Below, one piece after another: positions 989-62,467 of a stretch of 64,000 nucleotides of DNA (position 1 is its first letter; the number at the start of each line of letters is the position of its first letter). A program made the translations under genes and the position numbers. This stretch comes from Thermoplasmata archaeon (GTDB lineage Archaea; Thermoplasmatota; Thermoplasmata; Lutacidiplasmatales; UBA184): positions 32,001-96,000 of the forward strand of contig JAGWLG010000001.1 in assembly GCA_028864975.1 (NCBI GenBank). The letters are read 5' to 3'. The notes under the pieces were generated by a model. That model made no database searches, was not told the origin of the DNA, and worked only from the letters and a program-made list of their open reading frames with translations.

Positions 989-1016
989 GGGGGTGGGGAG
1001 AGGGGCCCCGGGGACG

Positions 1017-4000
1017 ATGACCCGGGGCCTCTCCCAACCATTTCGAGGAAGGAGCGGTCGGCTCCCCTATTCGTTCGTTGGGATCGTTATCCTTGCCGCG
1101 ATGGTCATCCTCACGGCGTACTTCGAGATTGCCGTCACGTGGTCGAACAACGAGGGCGCGTTCAACGTCCCTGAGCAGCTGAACACGGCCTTCGCGCTGG
1201 CGCAGCGGAACATCCAGCAGGCTGCCTACCTCGCGCTCCTTCAAGGGGAGTCGCAGCTCCTGCTCCAGACCCCTAATCCTCCTATCGATCAACTGAACCA
1301 GACCCTGAGGGACGGATTCGCGTCGGCGTTGCAGTCGATGGGTTTCGTCTCCCTCTCCGGGGGACCAGCTCCGGGATTCCAGGACGGGTCAGTCCGCGTC
1401 TACGCCGAGTCTTGGGGCATCAACCTGACCTGGGACCAGGGACAAGTGTGGGACGCGGTTCCCTCGATCGCGCTCCGGTCCGGAAGCAACGACCCTAACC
1501 TCCCCCTCGCGCAGGTCCCCGACGCGGCCCGCCCGACCTCGCTCGCCCTCACGGAAGAACCCGTCTATCCCATGGCCATCGGCGAGGTGCTCCTCTTCGG
1601 TGTGGATGGCGCCTCCGGGGTCTCTGGAACGCAGATCGTACCCTTCACCGAGACCGTCCAGAGCGAGCTGGGGCTCCTCGAGGACAGCCGAGCTCAGTTC
1701 GCCGATGCCTCCTTCGGACCTTCGGGGGGGTTCGCCCACCTGGTCCAGTACTTGGCCACGACGCTGGGAGAAATGCGCGCGTTGGTGGGGTACGGCTCGG
1801 GGGGGTGGCTCGGACCGAACGATGCGACGTCGATCGCCAGCAGTGCTTGTGGTGGCGCGAGCACGCCGAGCATCCTCTCTTGCGACGACCTTCACAACGC
1901 CGTCTCTCTTGCCGAGTTGCTGGAGAGCCTGCAGTACTTCCGCAGCTACGACCCCAACGCCACCTATGCGCTTCTGAGCGGACTTCCCCCCGGACCCTAC
2001 CAGACGCTCCTGTCGAAGTTCGTCTCCGATGGCGTCGTGGATGGGGCCGCCCTCTTCCTCCTCCTCTATCAGCAGCCGGGTAGCGGAGGGACTACCCCCG
2101 GGGGGATCGCCTCCATCAGTTCGGGCGAGGGGCTCGCCTCCGCGGCGTACTCGTTCGTCGACCGGTTCAAGTTCGACCTCATCCAGCAGTTCTTCGGAGC
2201 TCAGGCGGTCGACCCGACGCTCACGGAGCCGGTCGTCGACTGGGCCCGGCTCACCTCCCAGGGACAGGCCTACGCCCAGGCTCGTCTGCTCCAATGGCTG
2301 TCCGACTACCAGAACTGGCTGGGGATCTCGGTCAACTCGGTCCCCGCCTTCGACGACACTTCCTACATCCCCGCCGAGTGGTGCGACGACAACGGGAACT
2401 GCGGAACAGGGGCTTACACCGGAGGCGGGGCGTGTCTCTACTCCATCCTGCCGGCCGGGTCCACGATCAACACCTACGGCGCGACGATCGCCAATCTGCG
2501 TCTGGAGATCCTCGGGCAGAACAACTTCGGCTTCACGCCCCAGATGTTCACGATCAACGAGGTCATCACGGTCCCCGCCGTGGGCATCTACCCTCAGTGG
2601 CAGGATGCGGACGTCGGTACTGGAGCGGGTGGCGGTGCGGGGTACAATCTGGTCGACTACTCCCTTCTCGGGGAGTACAACGGGGCCTCCGGCCTGTCGA
2701 ACCCGCTCCTGGGCATGACCCCGGGCCCTCAGGGCGACCCGTACATGCAGGCGCTCGCAGGTATCCTGGAGCAGCTCAACGCCTCCATGGACCACAAGTC
2801 ACCCGCGGCCACGGGAATCGGCCAGAAGGGATACTTGGACTGGCTCGCCTACAGCGCCGCTAAGGATGGGGGCAACTACTCCAGCTTCGCCTCCGCGGGC
2901 CTTCCAGACCTATCGAACCCCTTGGTCGTGAACCAGGTGGTCAACTCGACCTCCTACAGCCTGCTCACGAACGGAAGCTCGACCCTCCTTAATGGAGTGG
3001 ACGCGCTCGCCCTCCAAAAGCTCTCGACGCAAGCCACCAACGCCTCGTGGCTGAACACCTCTTGGGTCTGGGGCGCGGCCCATCCTGATCTGATGCCTGC
3101 GGATGCTCTGGGGAGCACGATACCCGGAGGTGGAGTTCCTCCCACACCCCCGTCCGACAATCCCAGCCCGGGCCCGGCCGACTGGTGGACGATCTTGGAC
3201 AGCGCGCGACTGACCGCGCGCGAGTGGTACCAGCTGATGTACAACCTCTACTGGGGTACCTCGGGCATCATCCCCGGCTCCCCGGTCGGGGCGATCGATT
3301 TTGGGGCCATGGACAACGCCCAGTTCACCCTCTGGAGCCAGGGGGTCTACCACCAGCCGCCATCTCCCGGTATCGAACCGGACTTCGCGATGTGGATCCA
3401 GAACGAGAGCTATATCTCGGTCTACAACTGGATGGGCTATAGCCAGCCGGGGTACGGCGAGGGAGAGTGCGACAGGTTCTCCTGCGCCAATCCTGCGACA
3501 CGGTACGTTGGGGCGGTGGCCACAGGTGCCTGTTCCAATGGGGCGTTCGGTACCCCCGGGTACGCGGCATGGCAGAACGCTCGGAGCTACTTCTTCTTCG
3601 AGGAAGGCACGGGTCAGCCGAGCCGGACCTGGAACAACGTCGGGGCGGCGGTGACCTGCGCGCTTCTGGGTCCGGCCGGTCACACGCTGGGTGGTGCGTC
3701 CTGTGCCGCGGCGCCGTACAGCACCACCGGTACTCCGAAGGGCATTGACTTCTTCCACTATGACACCGCGCCCGGCGTCGGGCTCACTTCCTCCTTCTGG
3801 AACACCAAGAACGCCACCGGCGATGGGTGGTGGGGATGCTGGAGCCCCACCGTGGGGCTCTGCCCGCGGGCAGGTCAGTACGACTACGGAAACGACTACG
3901 GCAACTTCACCAACTGGACGATCGACAAGATCGCGCCACCGTTGCTGAACGACACGCGGGAGATGGGCCAGGTGGGGGGCTGGCTCTCCCAGCTCTACGC

Positions 4001-5891
4001 CGCGGCCGACCGAGAGATCTGGCAGGGCGCGAACCTGTCTGCGACCATCGACAAGCCCTGGCTCGAGAACGGGGTGAACTACAGCTTCTGGCAGGGCAAC
4101 TACACTAACGAACTCCGTGACGGCCAGGTCTCCAACGAGTCGTTACAGAACCTGCTCAGCGGAATGCAGGTGCACGGTGCGGGGCTCACGTTCACGTGGA
4201 CCGCTCCCACGTCCACGATCCACTTGGTCGATGCCCAGAACGACTCCTCGAACATGGGCATCGCCCCGATGACGTCCACGTGGGCCGTCGACCTTCACGG
4301 GAGCATCGACCTCAATCTGACGTCGAGCCGTCTCGCGCTGCTCCAGAAGGGCTACGGGGTCCCCACGCAGCTCAACGTGACCGTTCCGATCAACATGGAC
4401 GTGCCGGTCACCATCTATACGCCGTGGAACCTCGGAAGCGGATGGGACCCCCTCTCGACCCCGCTGCCGGGGGACCCTGCGTACGTCCTGACCCGCGGGG
4501 TCTTCGGCCTTGTCGGGAACGACTACCACGCCGCGCCGAACTTCCTCCCCGGGACCTACCTCAGCGCTCCCTTGAACGCCCTCATGGCGAACATGACCTC
4601 GCTTGGCCGCGTGTTGGGGGCGGAGGGACGCGCTCAGGCGTCCATGTTAGCGGGGCTACCTGACCGGGACGTCGGGGCCTCGGCACCCTGGGCGCAGAAC
4701 TGGACCCTCCTGGAGAACACCACCCAGACCGCGCTCGCCGCCACAGCTGGGCCGTACCTCGCGGCGACGCAGGGCTACATCGCGCTTCTGAACTCCGAGC
4801 TGACGGCCGTGCCGAACGGAGGGCCGTACACGAACGTGCCGTGGGTCTACCCGGCCTACTTCGGCTTCCTCGGCCAGCTCAACAGCCCCGGCCAGCAGTT
4901 CAACTACTATGGCTACCCCGGACCCACCGGGTTCGGGAACGTCGACCAGTACAACCTCACCTTCGCGGGACCGACCGTCGGGGTCAACTACTTCGTCGAC
5001 AACAACTTCCGGGGCGCCTCTCCGGGCACGGTCCCGGTCCATGGGTTCTGCGGGGCCTGGTCGCCGACGGCCCCTGCGCGCAACCTCTACTGCGGCCCCG
5101 CCATCCACAATACCGGCCTGTCCTACACTTTCGATGGGTACTGGCAGGAGTTCCTCACTCCCTACCGCCTCTCGCTCTCGGGGTCCCCCACGTTCACGGC
5201 CCCTGCTCAGGTCGCGGCGGCACGGAGCTATCCCTCCCTCACGTCCCCGTACCTGGGGCCCACGTCGGCCTACCCGGCGGAGCTCTCCGTGAGCGGCGTA
5301 GGAGGACTCCCACCGCCCGCGTCGACCGGGTTCGTGCAGGCCAACCAGGGATACCTGCCCGCTCCGGGAGCCTTCTCCAACTACGCCGCGGAGCAGCAGT
5401 GGGCGGCGGCATACCTCTTCGACGGGCTCGGCTCTGCGACGACCCCGGGGGTCACGGAACTCGGCTACTCGACCGTGCTCGAGTACTCGACGCTCGCCGG
5501 GGACGCCAGGTCGATGAACACTACGGTCGATCTTCAGGACGCCGCCGGGCTCTTCGGATCAGCGACGCAGATGGCGAACGTCGGGGGCTTCCTGGAGTGG
5601 TTCGAGCTCAACCACGAACAGATCGCCTACGGTCTGGGAGGACTTTCGGCGGACCCGACCACCCTGGCCTCGGCCGAGCCCTATCTCCTGACCTCGGCGT
5701 ATCGGAACGTCACCGTCGCGACGGGGTCGCTCTCGACCCCCTCGACCTACGCCTTCCTCTCCTCGAACCTCGCTTGCACGGAAGGCGACCTTGGCGGAAC
5801 GGGTGGAGGGCTCCTGAACACCCCTACGGTGCTCATCGGGGGAGGGACCCCCCAGACGTGGTCGTACGGCGGGGCCCTGGTCGAGGACTGA
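1017..5891 (+). CDS. Very large pilin-associated/adhesin-like secreted protein (~1620 aa)
   Basis: Likely start MTRGLSQPFRGRSG|RLPYSFVGIVILAAMVIL (class III-like signal). One N-terminal TM helix, Gly/Ser/Thr/aromatic-rich body, several Cys-rich inserts. Confidence 0.7.
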   Translation: MTRGLSQPFRGRSGRLPYSFVGIVILAAMVILTAYFEIAVTWSNNEGAFNVPEQLNTAFALAQRNIQQAAYLALLQGESQLLLQTPNPPIDQLNQTLRDGFASALQSMGFVSLSGGPAPGFQDGSVRVYAESWGINLTWDQGQVWDAVPSIALRSGSNDPNLPLAQVPDAARPTSLALTEEPVYPMAIGEVLLFGVDGASGVSGTQIVPFTETVQSELGLLEDSRAQFADASFGPSGGFAHLVQYLATTLGEMRALVGYGSGGWLGPNDATSIASSACGGASTPSILSCDDLHNAVSLAELLESLQYFRSYDPNATYALLSGLPPGPYQTLLSKFVSDGVVDGAALFLLLYQQPGSGGTTPGGIASISSGEGLASAAYSFVDRFKFDLIQQFFGAQAVDPTLTEPVVDWARLTSQGQAYAQARLLQWLSDYQNWLGISVNSVPAFDDTSYIPAEWCDDNGNCGTGAYTGGGACLYSILPAGSTINTYGATIANLRLEILGQNNFGFTPQMFTINEVITVPAVGIYPQWQDADVGTGAGGGAGYNLVDYSLLGEYNGASGLSNPLLGMTPGPQGDPYMQALAGILEQLNASMDHKSPAATGIGQKGYLDWLAYSAAKDGGNYSSFASAGLPDLSNPLVVNQVVNSTSYSLLTNGSSTLLNGVDALALQKLSTQATNASWLNTSWVWGAAHPDLMPADALGSTIPGGGVPPTPPSDNPSPGPADWWTILDSARLTAREWYQLMYNLYWGTSGIIPGSPVGAIDFGAMDNAQFTLWSQGVYHQPPSPGIEPDFAMWIQNESYISVYNWMGYSQPGYGEGECDRFSCANPATRYVGAVATGACSNGAFGTPGYAAWQNARSYFFFEEGTGQPSRTWNNVGAAVTCALLGPAGHTLGGASCAAAPYSTTGTPKGIDFFHYDTAPGVGLTSSFWNTKNATGDGWWGCWSPTVGLCPRAGQYDYGNDYGNFTNWTIDKIAPPLLNDTREMGQVGGWLSQLYAAADREIWQGANLSATIDKPWLENGVNYSFWQGNYTNELRDGQVSNESLQNLLSGMQVHGAGLTFTWTAPTSTIHLVDAQNDSSNMGIAPMTSTWAVDLHGSIDLNLTSSRLALLQKGYGVPTQLNVTVPINMDVPVTIYTPWNLGSGWDPLSTPLPGDPAYVLTRGVFGLVGNDYHAAPNFLPGTYLSAPLNALMANMTSLGRVLGAEGRAQASMLAGLPDRDVGASAPWAQNWTLLENTTQTALAATAGPYLAATQGYIALLNSELTAVPNGGPYTNVPWVYPAYFGFLGQLNSPGQQFNYYGYPGPTGFGNVDQYNLTFAGPTVGVNYFVDNNFRGASPGTVPVHGFCGAWSPTAPARNLYCGPAIHNTGLSYTFDGYWQEFLTPYRLSLSGSPTFTAPAQVAAARSYPSLTSPYLGPTSAYPAELSVSGVGGLPPPASTGFVQANQGYLPAPGAFSNYAAEQQWAAAYLFDGLGSATTPGVTELGYSTVLEYSTLAGDARSMNTTVDLQDAAGLFGSATQMANVGGFLEWFELNHEQIAYGLGGLSADPTTLASAEPYLLTSAYRNVTVATGSLSTPSTYAFLSSNLACTEGDLGGTGGGLLNTPTVLIGGGTPQTWSYGGALVED

Positions 5892-19779: not shown

Positions 19780-19852
19780 AGCCCCGTAGTCTAGTGGCCA
19801 AGGATGCGGGACTCTGGATCCTGCGGCATCGGTTCGAATCCGGTCGGGGCTA
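19780..19852 (+). tRNA. tRNA-Gln(CTG)
   Basis: Cloverleaf AGCCCCG/CGGGGCT (A1:U72, typical of archaeal Gln), anticodon loop CTCTGGA, TTCGAAT T-loop. Confidence 0.96.
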
Positions 19853-19873: not shown

Positions 19874-20145
19874 CGCTTCGGGAAGGGGAGGTTCCGTCGC
19901 CCTTCGCTGGGGAACGTGCCCAAAGCCAGCTTCAGGGAGAGGACACTCTTCGCGGCGCGAATCCCTCGCGCGGCGCTGGGCGCGGCTCAACTCCGTGGAC
20001 GAGCTCGGGCGATCGATCCGCACAAGGAGGCTTGTGCATCCAGCTTCGCAGGCAGAAGCACGCGAAACCGGTCGGGCCGATCGGCATCTTAAGGATCGAC
20101 CGAGCGAGGAATGGATTATATGGAATTGCGTATTTTGAATATTGT

Positions 20146-20388
20146 ATGACGCTTGTCCAGGCGCAGATCCCTGAAGGAGAGTATCGTCTCCTCCGACAAC
20201 GCGCGGAGGCCACGGGTCAGCCGATGAAGGAGATCGTTCGACAGGCCTTGCACGCCTACCTTGCCGACGATACCGTGGACCCGAACGACCCGATCTTCAA
20301 GATCTTCCCTCTGGGGTCGAGCGGGAGGAAGGGTCACTCTGCCGCTCGCGATCATGACGTGATCCTGTATGGACCCCGGCGACGATGA
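20146..20388 (+). CDS. vapB: Ribbon-helix-helix antitoxin (VapB/CopG-like)
   Basis: MTLVQAQIPEGEYRLLRQRA...MKEIVRQAL RHH pattern. ATGA overlap with the PIN gene; TTATAT box about 26-30 nt upstream. Confidence 0.8.
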   Translation: MTLVQAQIPEGEYRLLRQRAEATGQPMKEIVRQALHAYLADDTVDPNDPIFKIFPLGSSGRKGHSAARDHDVILYGPRRR

Positions 20389-20789
20389 TCTTTGTCGATA
20401 CCAGCGCATGGCTCGCTCTCGCGGATAGCCACGACCGCGACCACTCGGCCGCTCAGGCCTTTGCTCAGCGGCTTTCGCGGGGCGAGTTCGGGAAACAGGT
20501 CACGACCAATTACATCTTGACGGAGACGTTGACCATCGTTCGTCGTCGGCTCGGTCACACCGTCGCGCTCAACCTGTCAGAGAACTTGGCGAAGAGCGAG
20601 GTCGTGAGGACCTTCTGGATCGAACCCGTACACCATCGAGAGGCCATCCGACTCATGGCCGATCACCGCGACAAGGAATGGAGCGTGACGGACTGCTCGA
20701 GCTTTGTCGTCATGCACGCTCTGCAGATCCAGGACGCGTTCACCTTCGACCGCGATTTCGCCCGGGCCGGGTTCACCGCGGTCCCTTGA
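20385..20789 (+). CDS. vapC: PIN-domain ribonuclease toxin
   Basis: IFVDTSAW, ILTE, SVTDC, FTFDRDF acidic PIN motifs. Confidence 0.93.
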   Translation: MIFVDTSAWLALADSHDRDHSAAQAFAQRLSRGEFGKQVTTNYILTETLTIVRRRLGHTVALNLSENLAKSEVVRTFWIEPVHHREAIRLMADHRDKEWSVTDCSSFVVMHALQIQDAFTFDRDFARAGFTAVP

Positions 20790-20895: not shown

Positions 20896-21121
20896 GGATC
20901 TGCAGAGCGAAGTCTTCGTGCTCGGGGGCGCCCCGGGCGGTTCTTGGGTCGACCGTTCCACGCCGCGTTCCAGAAGGGGAGCGGCCACTCTCCTACCCAG
21001 CCCCCTCGGCAGCACGCCACGTCTCCGGAAGGGTTCGCTCTCCTCCACCAGGGGCGCGGTCGGACCGCGTCGGGGGTCGATAGCCGTTCCGGGACGGGGA
21101 GCATCTATACGGGGGAGACCG

Positions 21122-23725
21122 GTGAATCTCGGGAGGGCCCGATTGTACGCTGCGTCCGTGACGGTCGTCGTGTTCGCCCTCCTGACGCTCGTCGCGGGCG
21201 CGGCTCCCCTCGTGGCTGGGGTGCCTGCGCCGACCGCGCTCGGAGGCGCTCCCGGGGTCCTATCGACCTCCAGGTCTCCACTGGCCCCTCTCAACACCTG
21301 TCCGAACTCCTACTTCTACGGGTCGTCGACGAGCCTCAGCCTCCAGAACGTCGTGGATTGCGCCGGGGCGGGAGGGTTCAGCGGGGACCTGCAGATCACG
21401 TTCGTCTCGATGGCCTATCAAGAGAGCAACTTCTGTCCGGGGGCGATCCAGGGAGGGAGCGGCACCTGCTTCGTGACCGGTCCGGGCTGCAGCGGGAACC
21501 CGAATGCTGAGGGGATCCTCCAGCAGGGAACCGCCGGCCAGTGCCCTCCGACGGGAGGTCCCTTCTCGGTGCCGGGCTACAGTGCTAGCTCGTGCTCGAC
21601 CTGGTCCGGGAACGTGAACGACTGGGGCGGGATCTACTTCAATCCGCTATGCTCGTTCCAGTGGGCGCTGGCATACTACAACCAGAACGGGGGAGGGGAC
21701 TACAACTTCTGGGGAAGCTACCTCTCTGGCGCGTACTGCAACTGGGCCCCCAACGGCTTCCTGGGGACGGGTTCGGTCACTTGTTCGGGGACGGGGCAGA
21801 ACCAGGCGAACCTGCCTTGGAGCACGGTCTGCCCCAACAACGTCTGTCCGAGCGGCGGGAGCCCTCTTTCAGCAAGTTACTCGGTGACGGACACCACGAC
21901 AGGTACGAGCCTCGCGTGCGGCGCGACGATCGATACCGGTGACTCGATCCAGTTCACGGGCACTGGGTCGGGGGGGTCGCCCCCGTACACCTATACATGG
22001 ACCTACGGGGACGGGGGTACAGGGACCGGATCGACCGCGACCCATGTCTACACCGCCACCGGCACCGTCAACCCGATGCTGAAGGTGACCGACAGCACCG
22101 GCGCGACCGCGAACACCGGCACCGGATGCTCGTTCACCGTCGCCGCCCCTCCTGTCCCCACGATCTCTTCGTTCACCCTCTCCCCCTCCGTGCTCCACCT
22201 GGGGTGGACCACCTACGCGAACGTGAGCGCCCAGGGTGGGACCCCCCCGTACGCCTACGCCTTCGGGGGGCTCCCGACGGGGTGCGCTTCCTCCAACGTG
22301 GCCTCCCTGACCTGCACGCCGACCGCGACCGGGAACTTCACGGTCCACGCGACGGTCACGGATGCCCGCGGCCAGACCGCGTCGGCCAGCGCCTGGGTAG
22401 ATGTGAAGCCCGCCAAGGGGCCGGGACCGACCCTGAGCGCGTTCACCGCCGCGCCCAGCCCGATCACCTTGGGGGCCTCCGCCTACTTCAACGCCACCCC
22501 CACGGGCGGCGTGCTTCCATACACTTACGTCTACACCTCGCTCCCTGGGGGGTGCGTGAGCTCGAACACAAGCTCGCTGCTGTGCACGCCCACGGCCACC
22601 GGGACGTTCAACGTCAGCGTCCTGGTCACGGACGCCCAGGGGTTGAGCGCGTCCGGGGTCGCCACGCTCCAGGTCGATCCACCGGTCATCACGCCCCTCA
22701 CGATCGCCCATTTCCTCGCCTCACCGTCCACTCTGAACGCGGGAAGTGCGACCCGACTGAGCGCGACCGTCTCGGGAGGAACGACCCCCTACACGTTCTC
22801 CTACGCGGGGCTGCCCGTGGGGTGTGCTTCGAGCGATGCTGCGACCTTGACGTGTACCCCCACGGCTTCGGGGCAGTTCGAGGTGACGCTGACGGTCTCG
22901 GACTCGGGAGGGCATAGCGTCTCGGCTCTGGTCTCGATCTCCGTGACCGTCCCCAGTGGTTATCCTGCCATCGCGTCGTTCACCGCGGCGCCTTCACCCG
23001 TGGCCGTCGGCGGGACCACCGTCCTTGCCGTCTCGGTCGACGGGGGTTCAACGCCGTACTCGTTCTCCTACTCGGGGCTCCCTTCAGGTTGCTCGTCGTC
23101 GGACGTCGCCTCGCTACGCTGTTCTCCGACCAGCTCCGGCAGCTTCTCCGTGCAGGTCGTAGTCCAGGATCAGCTCGGTCACGGGGCCTCGACCCGGGCG
23201 ACCCTGAGCGTGGTCCATGCCTCCTCGGCGCCGCGCATCACGAGCTTCGTGGCGACCCCGAGCACCACGGTCGTCGGAGGCACGGTCGGTTTCTCGCTCA
23301 CGGTCGTTGGAGGGACGGCGCCCTACGAGGGGAGCTACTCTGGCCTCCCCACGGGATGTGCGAACGAGACGTCCTCCTCCTTCACCTGCTCCCCGAGCGC
23401 TCCGGGGACCTATCACGTGAGCGCGAACGTGACCGACGCTCTGGGCCAATCCACCTCGGCCACGCTCGTGCTCACGGTTCAGCCCGGGGGTGGCGCTCCC
23501 CCGGGCGCCTCGTCTCCTGCGATCGAGGTGATCGGCATCTTGACCTCAGGGCCAGGATTGATCGCGCTCGTGGGGTTGGCGGTCGGCGTGATCACGGTCC
23601 TGGCCGTCCGACACCGCCGCCGGTCGAGTGTAAAAGGTATGGCGTCACCTGAGGAAGAGGCGACCTGGGCTCCCTTGCAGCCCGGACCCCCGGAGGGTTG
23701 TTGGCAGGGCCCGCCGAGGACCTGA
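21122..23725 (+). CDS. Cell-surface protein: lysozyme-like/SLT domain + PKD and five Ig-like repeats + C-terminal membrane anchor
   Basis: Signal peptide from GTG 21122. Catalytic-type MAYQESNFCPGA...GILQQ...YFNP...WGSYLSGAY, then six beta-sandwich modules (GGxxPYxYxxxGLPxGC...TVxD), a TM helix and RHRRR. Confidence 0.85.
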   Translation: MNLGRARLYAASVTVVVFALLTLVAGAAPLVAGVPAPTALGGAPGVLSTSRSPLAPLNTCPNSYFYGSSTSLSLQNVVDCAGAGGFSGDLQITFVSMAYQESNFCPGAIQGGSGTCFVTGPGCSGNPNAEGILQQGTAGQCPPTGGPFSVPGYSASSCSTWSGNVNDWGGIYFNPLCSFQWALAYYNQNGGGDYNFWGSYLSGAYCNWAPNGFLGTGSVTCSGTGQNQANLPWSTVCPNNVCPSGGSPLSASYSVTDTTTGTSLACGATIDTGDSIQFTGTGSGGSPPYTYTWTYGDGGTGTGSTATHVYTATGTVNPMLKVTDSTGATANTGTGCSFTVAAPPVPTISSFTLSPSVLHLGWTTYANVSAQGGTPPYAYAFGGLPTGCASSNVASLTCTPTATGNFTVHATVTDARGQTASASAWVDVKPAKGPGPTLSAFTAAPSPITLGASAYFNATPTGGVLPYTYVYTSLPGGCVSSNTSSLLCTPTATGTFNVSVLVTDAQGLSASGVATLQVDPPVITPLTIAHFLASPSTLNAGSATRLSATVSGGTTPYTFSYAGLPVGCASSDAATLTCTPTASGQFEVTLTVSDSGGHSVSALVSISVTVPSGYPAIASFTAAPSPVAVGGTTVLAVSVDGGSTPYSFSYSGLPSGCSSSDVASLRCSPTSSGSFSVQVVVQDQLGHGASTRATLSVVHASSAPRITSFVATPSTTVVGGTVGFSLTVVGGTAPYEGSYSGLPTGCANETSSSFTCSPSAPGTYHVSANVTDALGQSTSATLVLTVQPGGGAPPGASSPAIEVIGILTSGPGLIALVGLAVGVITVLAVRHRRRSSVKGMASPEEEATWAPLQPGPPEGCWQGPPRT

Positions 23726-23851: not shown

Positions 23852-24802
23852 CTACCGGGGCTCGGTGGGGCGCGTTCGAGAGCGCGACGCGACCTTCGGT
23901 CGATGGACCTCGCCCACGCGGCTCTCGGGTTCGATCAGAAGGTAGTGGATGCGCGGGAAGTGCTCCCGGATCAGCTCCCCCAGGCGGTCGATGTGCATCT
24001 CGACCTCGTTCGTGCTGAGGTCGTCCGCGAAGTTCACCCGGAGACCCACCAGCTCGTCGTCCGGTCCCAAGAGCATGCTCTGGACGCCGACCACTTGACG
24101 CACGGGGGGATACTTCTCCACGAGCGCTAGGAGCGCGCGGGTCTCCTCCGCCCCTCGGCTTCGTCCCACCAGGAGCTCTCTCCCATCTCGCGCCAAGGCC
24201 AGGCCCATGAAGAGGAGGGACGCGCCGACGATGAAGGCCGCCACCCCGTCGAGCGCGAAGAGCCCGGTCACCTGGACGAGGAAGAGGCCCAGGAGGGCGA
24301 CCGCGCCGCCCAGGACGCTGACCGCGTCCTGGAGAAAGACAGTTTTCACCCCAAGGTGCATCGAGGTGAGCAGCGCTCGGACCGTGCCCCCGTCCCGCCG
24401 GAGCTCGAGAAGGACCACAAAGATGCTCGCGAGATTCCCCGCGAAGGTGACGGCCACGGTGAGGAGCCCCTCCCGTAGCGCTCCTACGGGATGAGGGGAG
24501 AGGATCTCTTGCAGCGCGAACACCATGACGAACGCCCCCGCGAGGCAGAAGGCCACCAGGCCGGCGCTGTAGGCCCAGAAGAACCGCTCCTTCCCCCGCC
24601 CGAAGGGGTGGGTGGGGGACGCCGGGAACTGGGCCGCGCGCTGTCCCCAGAGGATCATGAGCCCCGCCACTAGGTCCGTCGCGGCGTTCACGGCCTGGGA
24701 GAGGACCGCGTGGCTCCCTCCCGCCTCGAAGACCACGAAGTTCACGGCCAGGAAGGCCACGTTGAGGGCGAAGCTTGCGACGAGCACGAGCTGGGTGCGC
24801 AA
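23852..24802 (-). CDS. Cation diffusion facilitator (CDF) family transporter
   Basis: HPFGRGKERFFWA, six TMs, C-terminal dimerisation domain. Confidence 0.9.
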   Translation of the reverse strand: MRTQLVLVASFALNVAFLAVNFVVFEAGGSHAVLSQAVNAATDLVAGLMILWGQRAAQFPASPTHPFGRGKERFFWAYSAGLVAFCLAGAFVMVFALQEILSPHPVGALREGLLTVAVTFAGNLASIFVVLLELRRDGGTVRALLTSMHLGVKTVFLQDAVSVLGGAVALLGLFLVQVTGLFALDGVAAFIVGASLLFMGLALARDGRELLVGRSRGAEETRALLALVEKYPPVRQVVGVQSMLLGPDDELVGLRVNFADDLSTNEVEMHIDRLGELIREHFPRIHYLLIEPESRVGEVHRPKVASRSRTRPTEPR

Positions 24803-29333: not shown

Positions 29334-31793
29334 TCAAGGTGACTGCGGCGCCCAGGCAGGGGGTGGCTCCGCCATGGGCGCTCCCGGGGGAGGACCCTCC
29401 TGAGGGGGCCAGGGGGCGGACTCGGGCCCGTAGGGGGGACCGGGGGGCGCCGCGGGCGGACCCGGTGGGACCACTTCCATAGGAGATGGCGGGGGCCCGA
29501 CCACGGGGGTCTGGCCCGCTCCTGAGCCGTTGCGCTTCCTGCGAGATAGCAGTAGTACCACGACCGCGCCGACGGCCACGCCAAGGACCGCGCCGAGCAG
29601 GAAGACCCAGGAGTAGTTCATCAGGTCCTGGACGAAACCCTGGCTTCCAGAAGGGGTCGGCGAACCGGAGCTTGCGGGTGCCACGACACGAAGCACCGAG
29701 GTCGAGCGGGCCTGAGCACCCAGTCCGTCCGTGACCAGGAGACTGAAGGTGAAATTGCCCGCGCCCGTTGGGGTGAAGGAGATCGAGGGGCTCAAGCCGT
29801 TCGAGAGCGCCGTTCCGTTGAGCGACCAGGCATACGAGAGGGAGCCCCAGCCGCCCTTCACCGCGCTGTCGAGGTTCACGGTCGTGTGGGGGAGGGTGAA
29901 GTTGGACGAAAGGGCGGTGGTCACGCTGAGCGCGGCCGTCACGTCCACCCACACGGATGCGCTCGCGGAACTCCCGGTCGAGTCGTTGAACCAGACCGTC
30001 GCGGTGTAGTTCCTGGGGAGCGCATAGACGTGTGTCGCGTTCCGCGTGAGACCGATGTTCCCGTCGCCGAACTCCCAGAAGTACGTGAACGGCCCGGTCC
30101 CTCCTGAGCCGACCGAGGTGAACCCGACCGTCGTCGCACCCTCTCCCACGGGGGGAGTGCGCGAAAGGGCGACGGTAGGTGCAGGAGCTATCGGCACCAC
30201 GACCCAGAGGGAGGTCGCGCGTAGACCGTTCGATGCGTTCACCGAGGCCGTGATGTTGCTCGACCCCGGCACACCTGGGGTGCAGGCAAGGTGCGACGCG
30301 TTGACGGAGGCACACCCGCTCGGTAGCCCGTGCCACCACCAACTGTAGGAACCGTTCCCTCCGGAAGTGTTCGACCAGAGGTTCAGGGTTCCCCCTACGT
30401 CCAACGCCTTGGGGGTCGGAACGGGGGTCGCGATGCGTACGGGAAGTCCGAAGGCCCAGGTCCATGCCAGGTCTGTAGCGCCCTTGCGACCGCCGAAGAG
30501 CAAAGCGTAGCCATCGTGGCCGTCGTAGCTCATCGAGAAGTAGTTCACGGGTCCCGGTGAAAGTGCGAGGGCGAGCTTGGACCAGCCTGGCCCGGTGAAC
30601 GTCCATGAGTCTACGAAACACCCGGCGGCACTGCACCCTCCGTAGAGGAGCAGGTCGCCTTGAGCGGTGTCGAAGGCGAGGCCCGACCCGTACCGGGCAG
30701 CAGGTGCCACCGCGAGACTCCCCGTGAGGTTCGTCCAGTTCCCGCCGCGGAACGCCCAGGTGTCGCCCTGTGGTCGGGTCCCCGTAAGGCCCCCGAAGAG
30801 GACCCCTTCGGCCAGCGCGGGTGCATCCGCGAAGGCCCCCATCGAGCGGCGGATCGGAAGGGGCAAGCTCTGCACGGGCGTCAGGTTGGCCCAGAAGGTC
30901 CCCTTGAGCGCCCAAGTGTCGGAGAGGTCATGGCCCGCGCGGAACCCTCCGAAGAGCACAGGATGCCCATAGGAGGCCACGTAGCTCAGGGCGAACTCGC
31001 CTCGGCCCGACGGCGCTCCCTTGGCCCCCGTAGAGATCTCGGTCCAGCGACCTGCATGGAAGGTCCAGGTGTCGTTGAGCCCACACCCCGACTTCACGTC
31101 GCAGCCCCCGAAGAGGACGAGGAACGGACCGGCCGGGTCGTAGACCAGCCCTCCGTCGCGGCGCGGGATCGGAGCCGCCCCGATCGTGGGGGTCAGGTTC
31201 GTCCAGACCCCGGCCTTGAAGGTCCATGTGTCGTTCAGGAACCCGATCGTTCCTCGCAGTCCTCCGAAGAGCACCGTGTAGCCATCCGAAGGATCGTAGG
31301 CTTCCATCGCCCCGAACCGCGGAGAAGGGGCCGAGGGGAGGCTTGCCGAGAGGTTCATCCAGAGGGGGAGCGGGGTCGCGCTGGGGGTGTCGCGGGCCGA
31401 AGATGCCCCCGATGGGGCCAGCGCCGAGCCCTGGTTCATGGAGAGCCGGTCGGCTCCCAGCCCCGCGCCCCCCTTCGCGTGCTCAAGAGCCGGGTCAAGC
31501 TCGGAGAAGAGGGGGCTGAGGGAGATGACCACGATGAACACGACGAGGGCCTGCTGCACGGACGAGGCAGGAAGGCCTCTCCGGCGCGCCGTCGCGTTCC
31601 CAAGCACGCTGATAGATGGAGACTGCTCTGATTTGAGCCCTTGCTCTGGTCCGTTCCGGCCTCCCTGCCCCCTGCGGACTCCCCGGGTCGCGGGAGCTTG
31701 AAAAGGAGCGATGCTCCTACCTATCGGGCGCGGGGGTACTCTAGCCCGGTCAAACGTGCTGTTCGCGAGGACAGGAGCGGACCCAAGAGGCAA
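29334..31793 (-). CDS. Kelch-type six-bladed beta-propeller + PKD/Ig surface protein with C-terminal TM anchor
   Basis: Six xYD...LFGG...DTW repeats, one Cys-Ig and two PKD modules (YFWEFGDG), a TM helix and a Pro-rich tail. The true start is probably ~150-250 nt downstream of 31793, since the ORF start overlaps the tRNA. Confidence 0.8.
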   Translation of the reverse strand: MPLGSAPVLANSTFDRARVPPRPIGRSIAPFQAPATRGVRRGQGGRNGPEQGLKSEQSPSISVLGNATARRRGLPASSVQQALVVFIVVISLSPLFSELDPALEHAKGGAGLGADRLSMNQGSALAPSGASSARDTPSATPLPLWMNLSASLPSAPSPRFGAMEAYDPSDGYTVLFGGLRGTIGFLNDTWTFKAGVWTNLTPTIGAAPIPRRDGGLVYDPAGPFLVLFGGCDVKSGCGLNDTWTFHAGRWTEISTGAKGAPSGRGEFALSYVASYGHPVLFGGFRAGHDLSDTWALKGTFWANLTPVQSLPLPIRRSMGAFADAPALAEGVLFGGLTGTRPQGDTWAFRGGNWTNLTGSLAVAPAARYGSGLAFDTAQGDLLLYGGCSAAGCFVDSWTFTGPGWSKLALALSPGPVNYFSMSYDGHDGYALLFGGRKGATDLAWTWAFGLPVRIATPVPTPKALDVGGTLNLWSNTSGGNGSYSWWWHGLPSGCASVNASHLACTPGVPGSSNITASVNASNGLRATSLWVVVPIAPAPTVALSRTPPVGEGATTVGFTSVGSGGTGPFTYFWEFGDGNIGLTRNATHVYALPRNYTATVWFNDSTGSSASASVWVDVTAALSVTTALSSNFTLPHTTVNLDSAVKGGWGSLSYAWSLNGTALSNGLSPSISFTPTGAGNFTFSLLVTDGLGAQARSTSVLRVVAPASSGSPTPSGSQGFVQDLMNYSWVFLLGAVLGVAVGAVVVLLLSRRKRNGSGAGQTPVVGPPPSPMEVVPPGPPAAPPGPPYGPESAPWPPQEGPPPGAPMAEPPPAWAPQSP

Positions 31794-46037: not shown

Positions 46038-48099
46038 GTGCGCCGCCAAAGACAGCAAGACCAATAGGTGAAAGACCGACAGTGGAAGAAACCGAGAGAC
46101 ACGTAGCGAGGACCAAGGCCGAGCCGGCAACGGCTCGATTGAAGCAGGTCGACAATGGGGAAAGTCGGGCCTTCGGGCTCGGGGACCCCTACGCGAAGCC
46201 GCAGGCCCAATCGCAAGAAAACCCCCGTGGCAGTCGCCACAAGAATGTCGTCACTGGGCCCCTCCGAAAGGAGAGGCATGGGCGCGCCGAGCCTCTGTCG
46301 TCGAGGCGAAGGCAGCACCTTGGGCCGGAACTCGGGAATGAGGTCCAGGGGCGCCCCGGCGTTGCGGGGTGGGCATGTGGTGAAGGTCGGCTGGAAGAAG
46401 GCGGGAGATCCCGCGAGGCTTCGGGACGGGAGGCAAGGTCCACAGGTCCCGTGACCCGGAGCAGGACGGCCATAAGGGTAGGACCCGAAAGGTCGCCCGG
46501 TGCCTCGCGGGAAGTCGGAGAGGTCCGTAGTATCGGTGCGCCGCCTGTAATGGACGGGAAGGAGAAGGGACCTCACTTCGGTGCCGCGCCTGGAGGAGAA
46601 CGAGACCGCCCAAGTGACCGAGAGGTCTAGGACATGGGCAACAGTAAGGTCGGCGAGCTCCAAGAGGCGCTCTACCGAGCGGCAAAGGCGGACGTGGACC
46701 GAAGGTTCCACGCCCTACACGACAAACTCTGGCGTCCCGACGTTCTGCAGGAGGCCTGGGCGAAGGTCCGGGCCAACGGCGGAGCGGCGGGCGTCGACGG
46801 CAAGACCATCAGGGAAGTCGAAGACGAAAGTGTGCCCCGATTCTTGGAGGGGCTGGCGCGCGAACTCAAGGACCCGACGTATCGCCCGAGTCCACTGCGG
46901 CGGGTGTGGATACCAAAGCCCAACGGCAAGAAGCGCGGGCTGGGGATTCCCACCGTCAAGGACCGGGTGGCCCAGGCGGCGGTGAAGCTCTTGCTGGAGC
47001 CCATTTTCGAGGCGGACTTTGAGCCGTTCTCGTTCGGGTTCCGACCGGGGCGGTCCGCCCACGATGCGGTCGCGGAGGTCGTGAAGTACCTCAACTTTGG
47101 CTGCGAGCACGTGGTGGACGCCGACATCTCGGGATGCTTTGACAACATCCCGAAGGACCGCCTGTTGAGAGCAGTAGCGAGACGAGTCTCGGACGGAGCC
47201 TTGCTGAAGTTGATTCGGCAGTGGCTGGACTGTGGTTTGGTGGAAGGCGAGAGCTTTCAGAACCCGGACCGGGGGACCCCGCAGGGTTCCCCCCTGTCTC
47301 CACTGTTGGCCAACATCTACCTCGACAGGCTCGACAAGGGGTGGAGACGATGTGGTCTGGCCGCGCGAGAACGCGCGAACGCCCATCTGGTGAGGTACGC
47401 GGACGACTTCGTCATCCTGGCGAAGCGCGACATACAGGGGGTGAAGGTGACCCTGGACTCGATCATCCGGGAACTGGGGCTGACCCTGAGCCCAGAAAAG
47501 ACGCGGATTGTGGAAGCTGAGGAGGGATTCGACTTCCTCGGCTTCCATTTTCTTCGTCGCTTCAGCCAGGAAAAGGACAAACGCGTAACCTGGTGGTTTC
47601 CCTCCACGAAGTCGAAGCGCAGAATCCGAGAGAGGTTACATGCGCTTACCGGCACCGAGTGTCTTGCTCGGGGGACGTTCAGTGGCATCGTAGAAGAGGT
47701 CGCAGGAACCCTTCGGGGATGGGGAGAGTACTTCCGGCGCAGCAACGCGAGCTCGGCCATCGACCAAATCTGGTGGTACGCTTTCGAGCGCTTGGCCTGG
47801 CTGTACCGGAGGCAACGACCGAGAGGGCGGGTAAAACGAAGGCAGGTCGCATGGGCGGAGAAACGGCTTCGAGCCGTACGCCCGACCGTGCAGGCCTACA
47901 ACCTCCCGAGGCCCGCATGAACGCCGATAGCCGCAAGGTGAACACCGTCGGAGAGCGGAGTGCGGGAAATCCGCCTGCTCCGTTCGACGGGGGGGCAGTG
48001 GAGACGCAGCATGGGAGTCCCTCGGTCGCCGAGGACTCCCATGTCGGAGAACTACGCAACAACGCGAAGAACGCCGAGCGCGCCACTGCCCTACCCTAC
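46038..48099 (+). mobile_element. Complete group II intron (ribozyme + intron-encoded RT/maturase)
   Basis: 5' GTGCG at 46038. Domain V GAGCGGAGTGCGGGAAATCCGCCTGCTCCGTTC (47951-47983, AGC triad). Domain VI GGGGGCAGTGG/CCACTGCCCT-A-CCC with a bulged A; 3' end ...CCCTAC. Confidence 0.9.
46634..47920 (+). CDS. ltrA: Group II intron reverse transcriptase/maturase, no endonuclease domain
   Basis: GIPTVKDRVAQ, SFGFRPGRSAHDA, DADISGCFDNI, GTPQGSPLSPLLANIYL, RYADDF, FDFLGF, domain X LRGWGEYF. Confidence 0.97.
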   Translation: MGNSKVGELQEALYRAAKADVDRRFHALHDKLWRPDVLQEAWAKVRANGGAAGVDGKTIREVEDESVPRFLEGLARELKDPTYRPSPLRRVWIPKPNGKKRGLGIPTVKDRVAQAAVKLLLEPIFEADFEPFSFGFRPGRSAHDAVAEVVKYLNFGCEHVVDADISGCFDNIPKDRLLRAVARRVSDGALLKLIRQWLDCGLVEGESFQNPDRGTPQGSPLSPLLANIYLDRLDKGWRRCGLAARERANAHLVRYADDFVILAKRDIQGVKVTLDSIIRELGLTLSPEKTRIVEAEEGFDFLGFHFLRRFSQEKDKRVTWWFPSTKSKRRIRERLHALTGTECLARGTFSGIVEEVAGTLRGWGEYFRRSNASSAIDQIWWYAFERLAWLYRRQRPRGRVKRRQVAWAEKRLRAVRPTVQAYNLPRPA

Positions 48100-61309: not shown

Positions 61310-62467
61310 CTACAGAGGGGCGTTCGGGAGCTGGGCGACCTTCTGCGGTGGGCTCGCGAGTCGGGCGTCGGCGTCGACGTTCAGGCGGCCGGTGTACTGC
61401 ACCACCCCATCGACCCGGGCCTTCCGACCGATGTCCACGTCGCGGGCGTAGATGTTCCGGACGACGGTCTTGCGCTCGAGCCGGACCTCCTCTCCCCAGA
61501 TGTCCTCCGCCTCGGCCTCGTCATCGAGGGTGACAGTTCCACCGATCAAAGGCCCCCGCACTCGGGAGTCTTCGCCGACGTCGATGCGGGGGGCCTTGAG
61601 CCCGCCCCGAGTCTCGATGCTCCCGCCGACATCCACGCGCTCCTTCGCAACACCGTGGTCCGCCGTGAGCTTGCCCCCGACCTCCAAGCGGGTGGCCAGG
61701 ATCTCCTTCGTCACCTCGAGCTTGCCTCCGACCTCGATATCTCCACACTCCAGGGCATCGCTCCGCAGCAGTCCTCCTACCTCGATCTGCGGGCATCGGA
61801 GACGGCCCTTCACGCTCCCCATGCCCCCCACCTCAAGGGACCGGGAGAGCGTCAGGTCGCCGCCCGCGTCCAGGGCCCCTCCGACCTCAAGACGGTCGCC
61901 TTGCGCCGAACCCTGCAGGGAGATCTTCCCTCCAGCTTCGAGGCTCCCGAAGGTGAGGGGCCCCCGGACCTCGAGGATCCCCCCGACCTCGACCTGCAGC
62001 TGGACCTTGCCCCCCATGAGGACGATACGGCCTCCGACCTCGATGCTCTCCGCTTCCAGGGGCCCGCGCAGGTCGATCGAACCTCCCGCCTCCAGCGTCC
62101 GGACCGTGGTCGCTCCGTTCACCTCGAGGCGTCCCCCGAGCTCGGCGCGGTCGGCCTGCAGATTCCCTCCCACCACGAGCGAGCGTCCGACCTCGACCTC
62201 CCGGGCCGATAGGTTGCGCGCGACCCGGATCGACCCGTGGGACGACTCTACTCGGCCAGAGGCCGTCAGGTCCCCTTGGACCTGAAGGGCACCGCGCCGC
62301 AGCATGAGCGAGGCGCAGGAGAGGCTCCCCTCGACCGCGGCATCTCCTTCGAAGGCCACCTCGCCGCTGACCTGGATCCCCTCGGGCCCCTCTGGAACGA
62401 GGACATCTCCGTGCTCGACCTTCAGGTCCCCGGCGACCTTCCCCACTCGAATCGTTCTGCCCCGCAT
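61310..62467 (-). CDS. Extended bactofilin-like (polymer-forming cytoskeletal) beta-helix protein
   Basis: About a dozen [ED][VAL]GGx[LI]xV repeats with ~17-aa period across 385 aa; no signal peptide. Confidence 0.75.
   Translation of the reverse strand: MRGRTIRVGKVAGDLKVEHGDVLVPEGPEGIQVSGEVAFEGDAAVEGSLSCASLMLRRGALQVQGDLTASGRVESSHGSIRVARNLSAREVEVGRSLVVGGNLQADRAELGGRLEVNGATTVRTLEAGGSIDLRGPLEAESIEVGGRIVLMGGKVQLQVEVGGILEVRGPLTFGSLEAGGKISLQGSAQGDRLEVGGALDAGGDLTLSRSLEVGGMGSVKGRLRCPQIEVGGLLRSDALECGDIEVGGKLEVTKEILATRLEVGGKLTADHGVAKERVDVGGSIETRGGLKAPRIDVGEDSRVRGPLIGGTVTLDDEAEAEDIWGEEVRLERKTVVRNIYARDVDIGRKARVDGVVQYTGRLNVDADARLASPPQKVAQLPNAPL

What the first reader, a model, noticed from the sequence alone, without database searches (positions are those of the whole stretch)
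21122..23725. Archaeal surface-displayed lysozyme/lytic transglycosylase on a six-domain Ig/PKD stalk: candidate contact-range antibacterial weapon
Seen: a signal peptide is followed by a ~130-aa domain (about 21341-21725) reading LSLQNVVDCAGAGGFSG..ITFVSMAYQESNFCPGA...EGILQQ...IYFNPLCSFQWALAYY..GGGDYNFWGSYLSGAY. One PKD and five Cys-paired Ig repeats and a C-terminal TM anchor come after it. Known: lysozyme-like/SLT domains have an AxxES catalytic Glu helix, a G(L/I)xQ motif, an LFDP..N..A helix and, in the actinobacterial/phage lysozyme-like family, a W..Y.SGAY end. All four appear here in order, with Glu at 21422-21424. Inference: the host looks like a peptidoglycan-free archaeon, so this enzyme would act on neighbouring bacteria (killing, predation or nutrient scavenging) from a rigid stalk. 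Extra cysteines suggest disulfide stabilisation for a hot or acidic exterior.
Basis: partly seen in the sequence, partly recalled or inferred. Interest (0 to 1): 0.88.

Follow-up and report, generated by a model that had tools for sequence, protein, structure and literature searches.

The report
Archaeal membrane-tethered lysozyme-like wall hydrolase
A wall-less Thermoplasmata archaeon carries, on a stalk anchored in its membrane, a very divergent and unannotated lysozyme-type enzyme head that most likely cuts the cell walls of neighbouring bacteria; the idea is already published, but this enzyme family is new.

Summary
Window 21122-23725 (+) encodes an 867-aa protein: N-terminal signal-type segment, a Cys-rich head of about 190 aa, one PKD module, five ~90-aa Cys-paired PKD/Ig-like repeats, and a C-terminal membrane anchor.

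Pfam and PDB sequence searches do not recognise the head. Its AlphaFold model matches only lysozyme-superfamily structures (best Z 9.3, insect C-type lysozyme). A family profile aligns with E. coli lytic transglycosylases over the ES, GLMQ and DP-helix motifs (hhalign 80%). Glu101 (21422-21424) is invariant in 25 relatives.

The genome is archaeal. No PBP, SEDS, GT51 or McrA gene was found.

Peptidoglycan as the target is inferred, not shown:
- Relatives fuse this head to LysM, NlpC/P60/Amidase_6 or GH25.
- Across 101 genomes of the host's family, the same 10 carry this head and GH25.
- The head is under strong purifying selection (dN/dS about 0.06, against about 0.4 for the stalk).

Killing versus scavenging is unresolved.

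Archaeal antibacterial peptidoglycan hydrolases are already known (Metcalf 2014; Strock 2025). This scan had already flagged related proteins in this genome and in another Thermoplasmata genome. New here are an unannotated lysozyme-like family (26 clusters among 1.8 billion) and its membrane-tethered display without a wall-binding module.

The parts
21122..23725 (+). Whole gene (867 aa plus stop); stands alone. Upstream gene ends at 20789; downstream gene is convergent on the minus strand (23852-24802).
21122..21220 (+). N-terminal signal-type segment (residues 1-33): basic start, hydrophobic core, no twin-arginine motif. Sec-type by inspection.
   Evidence: Hydropathy; conserved in character in orthologues
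21296..21856 (+). Lysozyme-like head domain (residues 59-245), 12 Cys; no Pfam family.
21422..21424 (+). Codon GAG of Glu101, the proposed catalytic acid (motif QES). Invariant in 25 relatives.
   Evidence: Aligned with the Glu of the RQES motif of E. coli Slt70 and with the Glu of the WES motif of human lysozyme in a weak alignment of a relative.
21512..21523 (+). GILQ motif (residues 131-134), counterpart of GLMQ in SLT enzymes. The residue two before the Gly is a near-invariant Ala, so there is no second carboxylate of the C-type lysozyme kind.
21908..22156 (+). PKD domain (residues 263-345), Cys266/Cys336.
   Evidence: Pfam PKD 79.4 bits and PKD_4 75.6 bits
22157..23530 (+). Five ~90-aa PKD/He_PIG-like Ig repeats, each with a Cys pair 10 residues apart, joined by short Pro-rich linkers. 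All 7 N-x-S/T sequons of the protein lie here.
   Evidence: fast-evolving (dN/dS 0.34-0.43)
23531..23617 (+). C-terminal transmembrane anchor (residues 804-832), followed by RHRRR.
   Evidence: Hydropathy; same layout in the genome's other wall-hydrolase-like proteins
23618..23722 (+). Short cytoplasmic tail (residues 833-867).
   Evidence: Read from the sequence

Best explanation
The gene encodes a type I membrane protein of a wall-less, non-methanogenic Thermoplasmata archaeon. After export, the C-terminal helix holds it in the membrane. Six PKD/Ig-like modules joined by short Pro-rich linkers hold a lysozyme-superfamily head away from the cell.

The head is a new, unannotated family nearest to GH23/SLT-type lytic transglycosylases and phage SLT_3 lysozyme-like domains. 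It has one catalytic Glu (Glu101, motif ES), a GILQ strand and an NP helix. It lacks the second Asp of C-type lysozymes.

It most likely cleaves the MurNAc-GlcNAc backbone of bacterial peptidoglycan that touches the archaeal surface, either as a lytic transglycosylase or as a single-acid muramidase. It would act alongside the genome's other tethered wall hydrolases: four GH25 genes and a LysM/NlpC-P60 paralogue.

Shown: the architecture, the fold, the conserved motifs, the archaeal peptidoglycan-free host, the domain fusions and the co-occurrence. Inferred: the substrate, the catalysis and the biological outcome (lysis of contacted bacteria or digestion of wall debris).
For: Fold and motifs
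- AF2 model pLDDT 81.5.
- The exhaustive structural search lists only lysozyme-superfamily chains, best 1gd6 with Z 9.3, 112 residues, 3.3 A. Foldseek's top rows are C-type lysozymes and alpha-lactalbumins, all weak (E >= 0.057).
- ESM Atlas nearest neighbours by features and by shape are SLT_3/SLT/Phage_lysozyme2 clusters.
- hhalign of the family profile against four E. coli family-1 lytic transglycosylases: probability 79.9%, E 1.4e-5, 66 columns covering ES, GLMQ and the DP helix.
- Several relatives give sub-threshold to borderline Pfam hits to SLT_3, SLT and Phage_lysozyme2.
- Glu, G..Q, Trp and Pro are invariant in 25 sequences.

Selection
- Head dN/dS is about 0.06, against 0.34-0.43 for the stalk, in same-genus orthologues.

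Substrate, from guilt by fusion. The same head is joined to:
- Amidase_6/NlpC-P60 in P0008, P0010 and P0013;
- LysM repeats plus NlpC/P60 in the genome's own paralogue P0028;
- a GH25 muramidase in one 1219-aa protein of a related genus.

Co-occurrence
- Among 101 genomes of the host's family, the same 10 carry the head and GH25; the other 91 carry neither. Within genus g7, G019 has both and the other two genomes searched have neither.

Host
- Archaeal SSU rRNA and deoxyhypusine synthase in the window.
- No Transpeptidase, SEDS or GT51, and no McrA in 31 genomes of the family.

Precedent
- An archaeal GH25 and archaeal modular peptidoglycan hydrolases have been shown to kill bacteria (PMC4241558, PMC12352652).
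Against: - No biochemical data exist for any member of this family.
- P0001 itself has no recognised wall-binding module.
- Sequence links to known families are weak. P0001 alone gives no Pfam or PDB hit. hhalign reaches only 80% and does not cover the fourth SLT motif.
- LysM also binds chitin, and lysozyme-fold enzymes include GH19/GH23 chitinases and a GH124 cellulase, which appear lower in the list.
- The co-occurrence rests on few independent lineages (three genera).
- A tethered enzyme cannot reach peptidoglycan under a Gram-negative outer membrane.
- The genome is only 89.6% complete, so the absence of peptidoglycan synthesis genes is not proven.
Confidence: 0.65

Rival explanations
1. 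The head is a chitinase or chitosanase-like enzyme that attacks fungal walls or chitin debris for food, not peptidoglycan.
For: The lysozyme superfamily includes GH19 and GH23 chitinases, which appear among the structural matches at Z 3.7-4.6. LysM, found in the paralogue, can bind chitin (discussed in PMC12352652). No bacterial-type MurNAc salvage genes (AnmK, MurQ) were found.
Against: The best structural and profile matches are muramidases and lytic transglycosylases, not chitinases. The fusion partners NlpC/P60 and Amidase_6 are peptidases or amidases of wall peptides, and GH25 is a muramidase family. NagA was not found either.
Confidence: 0.12
2. The head is a non-catalytic binding module, so the protein is an adhesin that grips bacterial walls or other glycans without cutting them.
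For: The protein has the overall look of an adhesin (Ig-like stalk plus membrane anchor). P0001 has no separate binding domain. Alpha-lactalbumin, a non-enzymatic lysozyme relative, is among the top structural matches.
Against: The catalytic Glu-Ser and GILQ motifs are invariant or nearly so across 25 diverged sequences, and the head is under strong constraint. Where binding is needed, relatives add LysM.
Confidence: 0.08
3. The enzyme acts on the archaeon's own envelope or matrix glycans (turnover of glycocalyx, biofilm or N-glycans), or on the surface of archaeal partner cells.
For: It is tethered to the producer's own surface. The head also occurs in 48-50% GC contigs labelled Micrarchaeota, a different archaeal lineage.
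Against: No lysozyme-fold enzyme with such a role is known to me. The fusion partners (LysM, NlpC/P60, GH25) and the co-occurrence with GH25 point to murein. Most genera of the same family lack the head (0 of 71 genomes in g4), which does not suit a housekeeping envelope function.
Confidence: 0.06

Closest known systems
Family-1 lytic transglycosylases / GH23 (Pfam SLT PF01464; E. coli Slt70, MltC, MltD, MltE) and the phage 'Lysozyme like domain' SLT_3 (PF18896)
   Same: Lysozyme-type fold. A single catalytic Glu followed by Ser at the end of a helix. A G-[IL]-x-Q strand and a [DN]-P helix in the same order and similar spacing. Nearest neighbours in the ESM Atlas by features and by shape.
   Different: P0001 does not reach any Pfam threshold. 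The fourth motif (AYNAG) is not aligned. The head has a Cys-rich loop between motifs I and II, a conserved Cys-rich C-terminal extension (about residues 205-245) and 12 Cys in all. It occurs in archaea.
C-type lysozyme / alpha-lactalbumin (GH22, Pfam Lys PF00062)
   Same: Best structural match: Bombyx lysozyme 1gd6, Z 9.3, 112 of 119 residues. A relative aligns weakly with human lysozyme, matching QES to WES and GLFQ to GIFQ (E 0.09).
   Different: The position of the second catalytic Asp is a near-invariant Ala. The match is not significant by sequence, and the cysteine pattern differs.
Archaeal antibacterial peptidoglycan hydrolases: the Aciduliprofundum boonei GH25 lysin (Metcalf et al. 2014, PMC4241558) and the modular archaeal PGHs (Strock et al. 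2025, PMC12352652)
   Same: A wall-degrading enzyme with an export signal in an archaeon that makes no peptidoglycan. Thermoplasmatota are named as rich in such genes. The same genome carries four GH25 genes.
   Different: That survey required a recognised catalytic domain plus a recognised wall-binding domain. This protein has neither by Pfam, so such a survey would miss it. It is also membrane-tethered on an Ig-like stalk; the words 'transmembrane', 'tethered' and 'membrane-anchored' do not occur in that paper's main text.

Membership tests
Lysozyme-like superfamily (fold level; Pfam clan of SLT, Lys, Phage_lysozyme2, GH19 and others) | Alpha+beta lysozyme fold | tested here: met
   AF2 model pLDDT 81.5. 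All 50 listed rows of the exhaustive PDB search are superfamily members, best Z 9.3. Foldseek and the Atlas agree.
Lysozyme-like superfamily | Catalytic Glu at the C-terminal end of the helix before the beta region | tested here: met
   Glu101 is invariant in 25 sequences. It lies at the end of model helix 44-58. It aligns with the Glu of RQES in Slt70.
SLT / GH23 family-1 lytic transglycosylases (PF01464) | Match to the family model above its curated threshold | tested here: not met
   No hit for P0001 even at E <= 10. The best relative scores 20.6 bits against a cut-off of 21.3.
SLT / GH23 family-1 lytic transglycosylases | Motifs ES, GLMQ and the DP..N helix in order | tested here: met
   hhalign against four E. 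coli enzymes: 79.9%, E 1.4e-5, 66 columns covering these three motifs.
SLT / GH23 family-1 lytic transglycosylases | Fourth motif AYNAG | tested here: inconclusive
   Not covered by the local profile alignment. FWGSYLSGAY sits at a comparable distance, but the equivalence is by eye only.
SLT_3 'Lysozyme like domain' (PF18896) | Match to the family model above threshold | tested here: inconclusive
   None for P0001. One distant relative reaches 27.0 bits, exactly the cut-off, as an isolated domain, but 23.5 bits as a whole protein. Six of 25 relatives give weak hits.
C-type lysozyme (GH22) | Second catalytic carboxylate (the Asp two residues before the G of GILQ) | tested here: not met
   That column is a near-invariant Ala.
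Modular archaeal peptidoglycan hydrolases as defined by Strock et al. 2025 | A recognised catalytic domain plus a recognised cell-wall-binding domain in one protein | tested here: not met
   P0001 has only PKD/Ig-like Pfam hits. The paralogue P0028 does meet the definition, with LysM plus NlpC/P60.
Peptidoglycan glycosidases (functional class) | Cleavage of the MurNAc-GlcNAc bond of murein | not testable with these tools
   Needs an enzyme assay. Only indirect support from fusions and co-occurrence.

The most novel reading that the evidence does not exclude
This head founds a new glycoside-hydrolase/lytic-transglycosylase family confined to a few genera of wall-less Thermoplasmata, plus a second archaeal lineage of about 48% GC. 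Together with GH25 it forms a lineage-specific set of membrane-tethered enzymes that lets these archaea lyse bacteria on contact, that is, archaeal predation or contact killing without a secretion machine.
Probability: 0.3. Interest if true: 0.75.

Novelty: new variant of a known kind. Interest (0 to 1): 0.52.

Why it matters
Antagonism of archaea against bacteria has only recently been documented, and surveys so far rely on known Pfam domains. This protein shows that at least one lineage carries wall-hydrolase heads that such surveys cannot see, so the true archaeal repertoire is probably under-counted.

The design also differs from freely secreted lysins. The catalytic head sits on an Ig-like stalk fixed in the membrane, and the genome repeats this design in at least six proteins. 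That implies action at contact range, which would keep both the enzyme and the released nutrients at the producer's surface.

If active, the head would define a new lysozyme/lytic transglycosylase family, possibly acid-stable.

Tried and rejected
- Pfam on the head alone at E <= 10 gave only a chance hit.
- PDB sequence searches with the single sequence and with the family profile gave nothing meaningful. P0026 against PDB gave nothing.
- tblastn of the head against 50,697 phage records found no match. A recent phage origin is therefore not shown, although phage SLT_3 clusters are the nearest Atlas neighbours.
- A profile search of the 5.8-billion-protein collection for stand-alone relatives returned only 8 unannotated proteins and no bridge to a named family. 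Cluster look-up shows that every named member is called 'hypothetical protein'.
- The first related-loci run with the wide alignment failed because no stretch was conserved enough. It was repeated with closer sequences.
- Synteny: none of the window's neighbours (lyase, PIN, CDF transporter, GT4) lies within 6 kb of the orthologues. No operon or partner gene can be proposed.
- Scavenging route: AnmK, MurQ and NagA were not found in the genome, which is 89.6% complete. This weakly disfavours sugar salvage but proves nothing.
- One Mur_ligase_M hit exists. Two archaeal control genomes also give hits, so it is not taken as peptidoglycan synthesis.
- I could not read model coordinates, so the disulfide pairing and the clustering of invariant residues in a cleft were not checked.
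Full report
1. WHAT IS THERE

The frame 20918-23725 (+) is open. From the GTG at 21122 it gives 867 aa. Hydropathy shows two hydrophobic segments only, residues 6-37 and 799-832; the second is followed by RHRRR and a 35-aa tail. Orthologues keep a hydrophobic N-terminus in the same place, so the start is about right.

Pfam recognises PKD (79.4 bits, six stretches) and weak Ig-like families (He_PIG, Big_9, K319L-like PKD) between residues 263 and 800. It recognises nothing in residues 40-270. By inspection the stalk is one PKD module (263-345) plus five ~90-aa repeats, each with two Cys ten residues apart, joined by short Pro-rich linkers. The seven N-glycosylation sequons all lie in the stalk.

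The head holds 12 Cys.

2. THE HEAD IS A REAL, RARE, CONSERVED DOMAIN

An exhaustive HMMER search of 1.84 billion cluster representatives with residues 45-262 found only 26 proteins. The domain sits at different positions in proteins of 194 to 2100 aa.

In the alignment of 25 of them, Glu57, Gly87, Gln90, Gly92, Trp124 and Pro131 are invariant (alignment numbering; add 44 for the protein). Ser58, Ala85 and four Cys are nearly so.

Every member with a public name is a 'hypothetical protein' with no Pfam domain on record.

Between same-genus orthologues the head has dN/dS of about 0.06, and the stalk 0.34-0.43. dS is about 1, so these ratios are rough. The head is therefore the constrained, functional part and the stalk diverges quickly.

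3. FOLD AND FAMILY

The AlphaFold2 model built from the alignment has mean pLDDT 81.5 and pTM 0.81, and is confident from about residue 59 to 244 of the protein.

- Foldseek against the PDB returns C-type lysozymes and alpha-lactalbumins at the top, though weakly (E from 0.06).
- The exhaustive aligner returns only lysozyme-superfamily chains in its 50 listed rows. The best is Bombyx lysozyme (Z 9.3, 112 residues, 3.3 A). Then come alpha-lactalbumin, fungal muramidases, phiKZ gp144, DslA, Slt, phi29 gp13, MltE, Rpf, and further down GH19/GH23 chitinases.
- ESM Atlas neighbours by language-model features and by shape are phage and bacterial SLT_3, SLT and Phage_lysozyme2 clusters.

At sequence level, some relatives give sub-threshold or borderline Pfam hits to SLT_3, Phage_lysozyme2 and SLT. 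One aligns weakly with human lysozyme, with QES on WES and GLFQ on GIFQ (E 0.09).

A profile-profile comparison of the family with E. coli Slt70 alone gives 52.8%. Against an alignment of Slt70, MltD, MltE and MltC it gives 79.9%, E 1.4e-5, over 66 columns. Those columns put the family's ES on the catalytic ES, GILQ on GLMQ, and YFNP..FQWA.AY on L.DP..NI..G..YL.

The residue that would be the second carboxylate of C-type lysozymes is a near-invariant Ala. The chemistry should therefore resemble single-Glu GH23 enzymes.

I file the head as a new family within the lysozyme-like superfamily, nearest to SLT/SLT_3. It is not a member of any curated family.

4. THE HOST

- The assembly (3.6 Mb, 124 contigs, 89.6% complete) has an SSU rRNA that fits the archaeal model end to end.
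- The window itself encodes deoxyhypusine synthase.
- Relatives of the gene lie in MAGs named Thermoplasmata archaeon.
- No penicillin-binding transpeptidase, SEDS protein or GT51 glycosyltransferase was found, while ten bacterial control genomes gave hits.
- The single Mur-ligase-like hit is also seen in archaeal controls.
- No McrA was found in 31 genomes of the family, so these are not methanogens.

5. WHAT DOES THE HEAD ACT ON?

P0001 gives no direct clue, but its relatives do.

- The genome's own paralogue (contig C64; L038:6361-9630, minus strand; 1089 aa) has a signal peptide, the same head, LysM repeats on poly-Gly tethers (four by inspection of the sequence), a middle domain, NlpC/P60/Amidase_6 and a C-terminal anchor.
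- P0008, P0010 and P0013 place Amidase_6 or NlpC/P60 directly after the head.
- In a related genus, one 1219-aa protein carries the head (45% identity, E 3e-37), a PKD module and a GH25 muramidase.

Across 101 genomes of the host's GTDB family, the head occurs in 10: genus g1 3/3 plus the host, g3 5/5, g7 1/3, g4 0/71. GH25 occurs in exactly the same 10. Within g7 the one genome with the head is also the one with GH25. In 401 genomes sampled across the phylum, the head was found only in this family.

The host genome has four GH25 genes, two copies of the head, and LysM in two proteins. Six of these seven proteins have the same plan: an N-terminal hydrophobic segment, an enzyme head and a C-terminal anchor. 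The seventh, one GH25, lies near a contig end, and no C-terminal anchor was seen in its 499-aa open frame.

Together this points to bacterial murein as the target of a lineage-specific, membrane-tethered hydrolase set. The co-occurrence rests on few independent lineages, and LysM can also bind chitin, so chitin remains a live rival.

6. KILLING OR FEEDING?

AnmK, MurQ and NagA were not found. This speaks weakly against salvage of wall sugars by the bacterial routes. It does not decide between killing, predation and scavenging of peptides.

The gene stands alone, and its neighbours are not conserved in other species.

7. COMPARISON WITH WHAT IS KNOWN

Metcalf et al. showed that an archaeal GH25 kills bacteria (PMC4241558). 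Strock et al. found modular peptidoglycan hydrolases in about 5% of archaeal genomes, prominently in Thermoplasmatota, and showed killing by a haloarchaeal enzyme (PMC12352652). The concept is therefore known.

Their screen required a recognised catalytic domain and a recognised wall-binding domain. This protein has neither, and membrane tethering on an Ig-like stalk is not discussed there.

Earlier notes of this scan already flagged other wall hydrolases in this genome, and a lysozyme-like plus amidase protein in another Thermoplasmata genome.

8. VERDICT

- Observation: confirmed.
- Interpretation: supported as far as computation can go; the function is still inferred.
- Novelty: a new variant of a known kind. 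It is a new lysozyme-like family and a tethered display format within the already described theme of archaeal anti-bacterial wall hydrolases.

Noticed in passing
Own genome, contig C64 (L038:6361-9630, minus strand): Paralogue of 1089 aa: signal peptide, the same lysozyme-like head, LysM repeats on long poly-Gly tethers (four by inspection), a middle domain without a Pfam hit (contains GYNVDFEPD), NlpC/P60/Amidase_6 and a C-terminal anchor. It uses flexible glycine tethers where the window's protein uses Ig-like modules.
   Followed up: partly
L053:526-4185 (minus strand; genome G020, same family, another genus): One 1219-aa protein combines the new head (residues 69-264), a PKD module and a GH25 muramidase (375-555). 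That puts two different sugar-cutting heads in one surface protein.
   Followed up: partly
L025:4912-10869, L035:4912-10826 and L040:6001-12303: The head also sits inside giant proteins (about 2000 aa; 1985 aa in L025, 2100 aa in L040; in L035 the frame is split into ORFs of 428 and 1543 aa) on contigs of 48-50% GC. Two of these are labelled Candidatus Micrarchaeota, and the flanking ORFs have a similar order and size. Identity to the 67% GC Thermoplasmata head is up to 66-75%, which suggests transfer between two archaeal lineages. The taxonomic labels were not verified.
   Followed up: partly
Host's GTDB family, 101 genomes: The new head and GH25 co-occur exactly: the same 10 genomes have both and 91 have neither. 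These genomes (1.9-3.6 Mb) tend to be larger than those listed without a match (1.6-2.3 Mb).
   Followed up: partly
window 46634-47920 (+): Group II intron reverse transcriptase/maturase (RVT_1 144.7 bits plus GIIM). The intron RNA was not looked for.
   Followed up: no
window 20134-20789 (+): Two small overlapping ORFs just upstream look like a VapB/VapC (PIN-domain) toxin-antitoxin pair by eye. tRNA-Gln lies at 19780-19852. Not tested with Pfam.
   Followed up: no
window 993-5891 (+) and 29334-31793 (-): Further large putative surface proteins: a 1632-aa ORF with no Pfam domain, and an 819-aa Kelch-repeat plus PKD protein.
   Followed up: no
window 61310-62467 (-): A 385-aa ORF with bactofilin and FapA-like beta-solenoid hits. 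Bactofilin is described as a polymer-forming cytoskeletal family, here in an archaeon.
   Followed up: no
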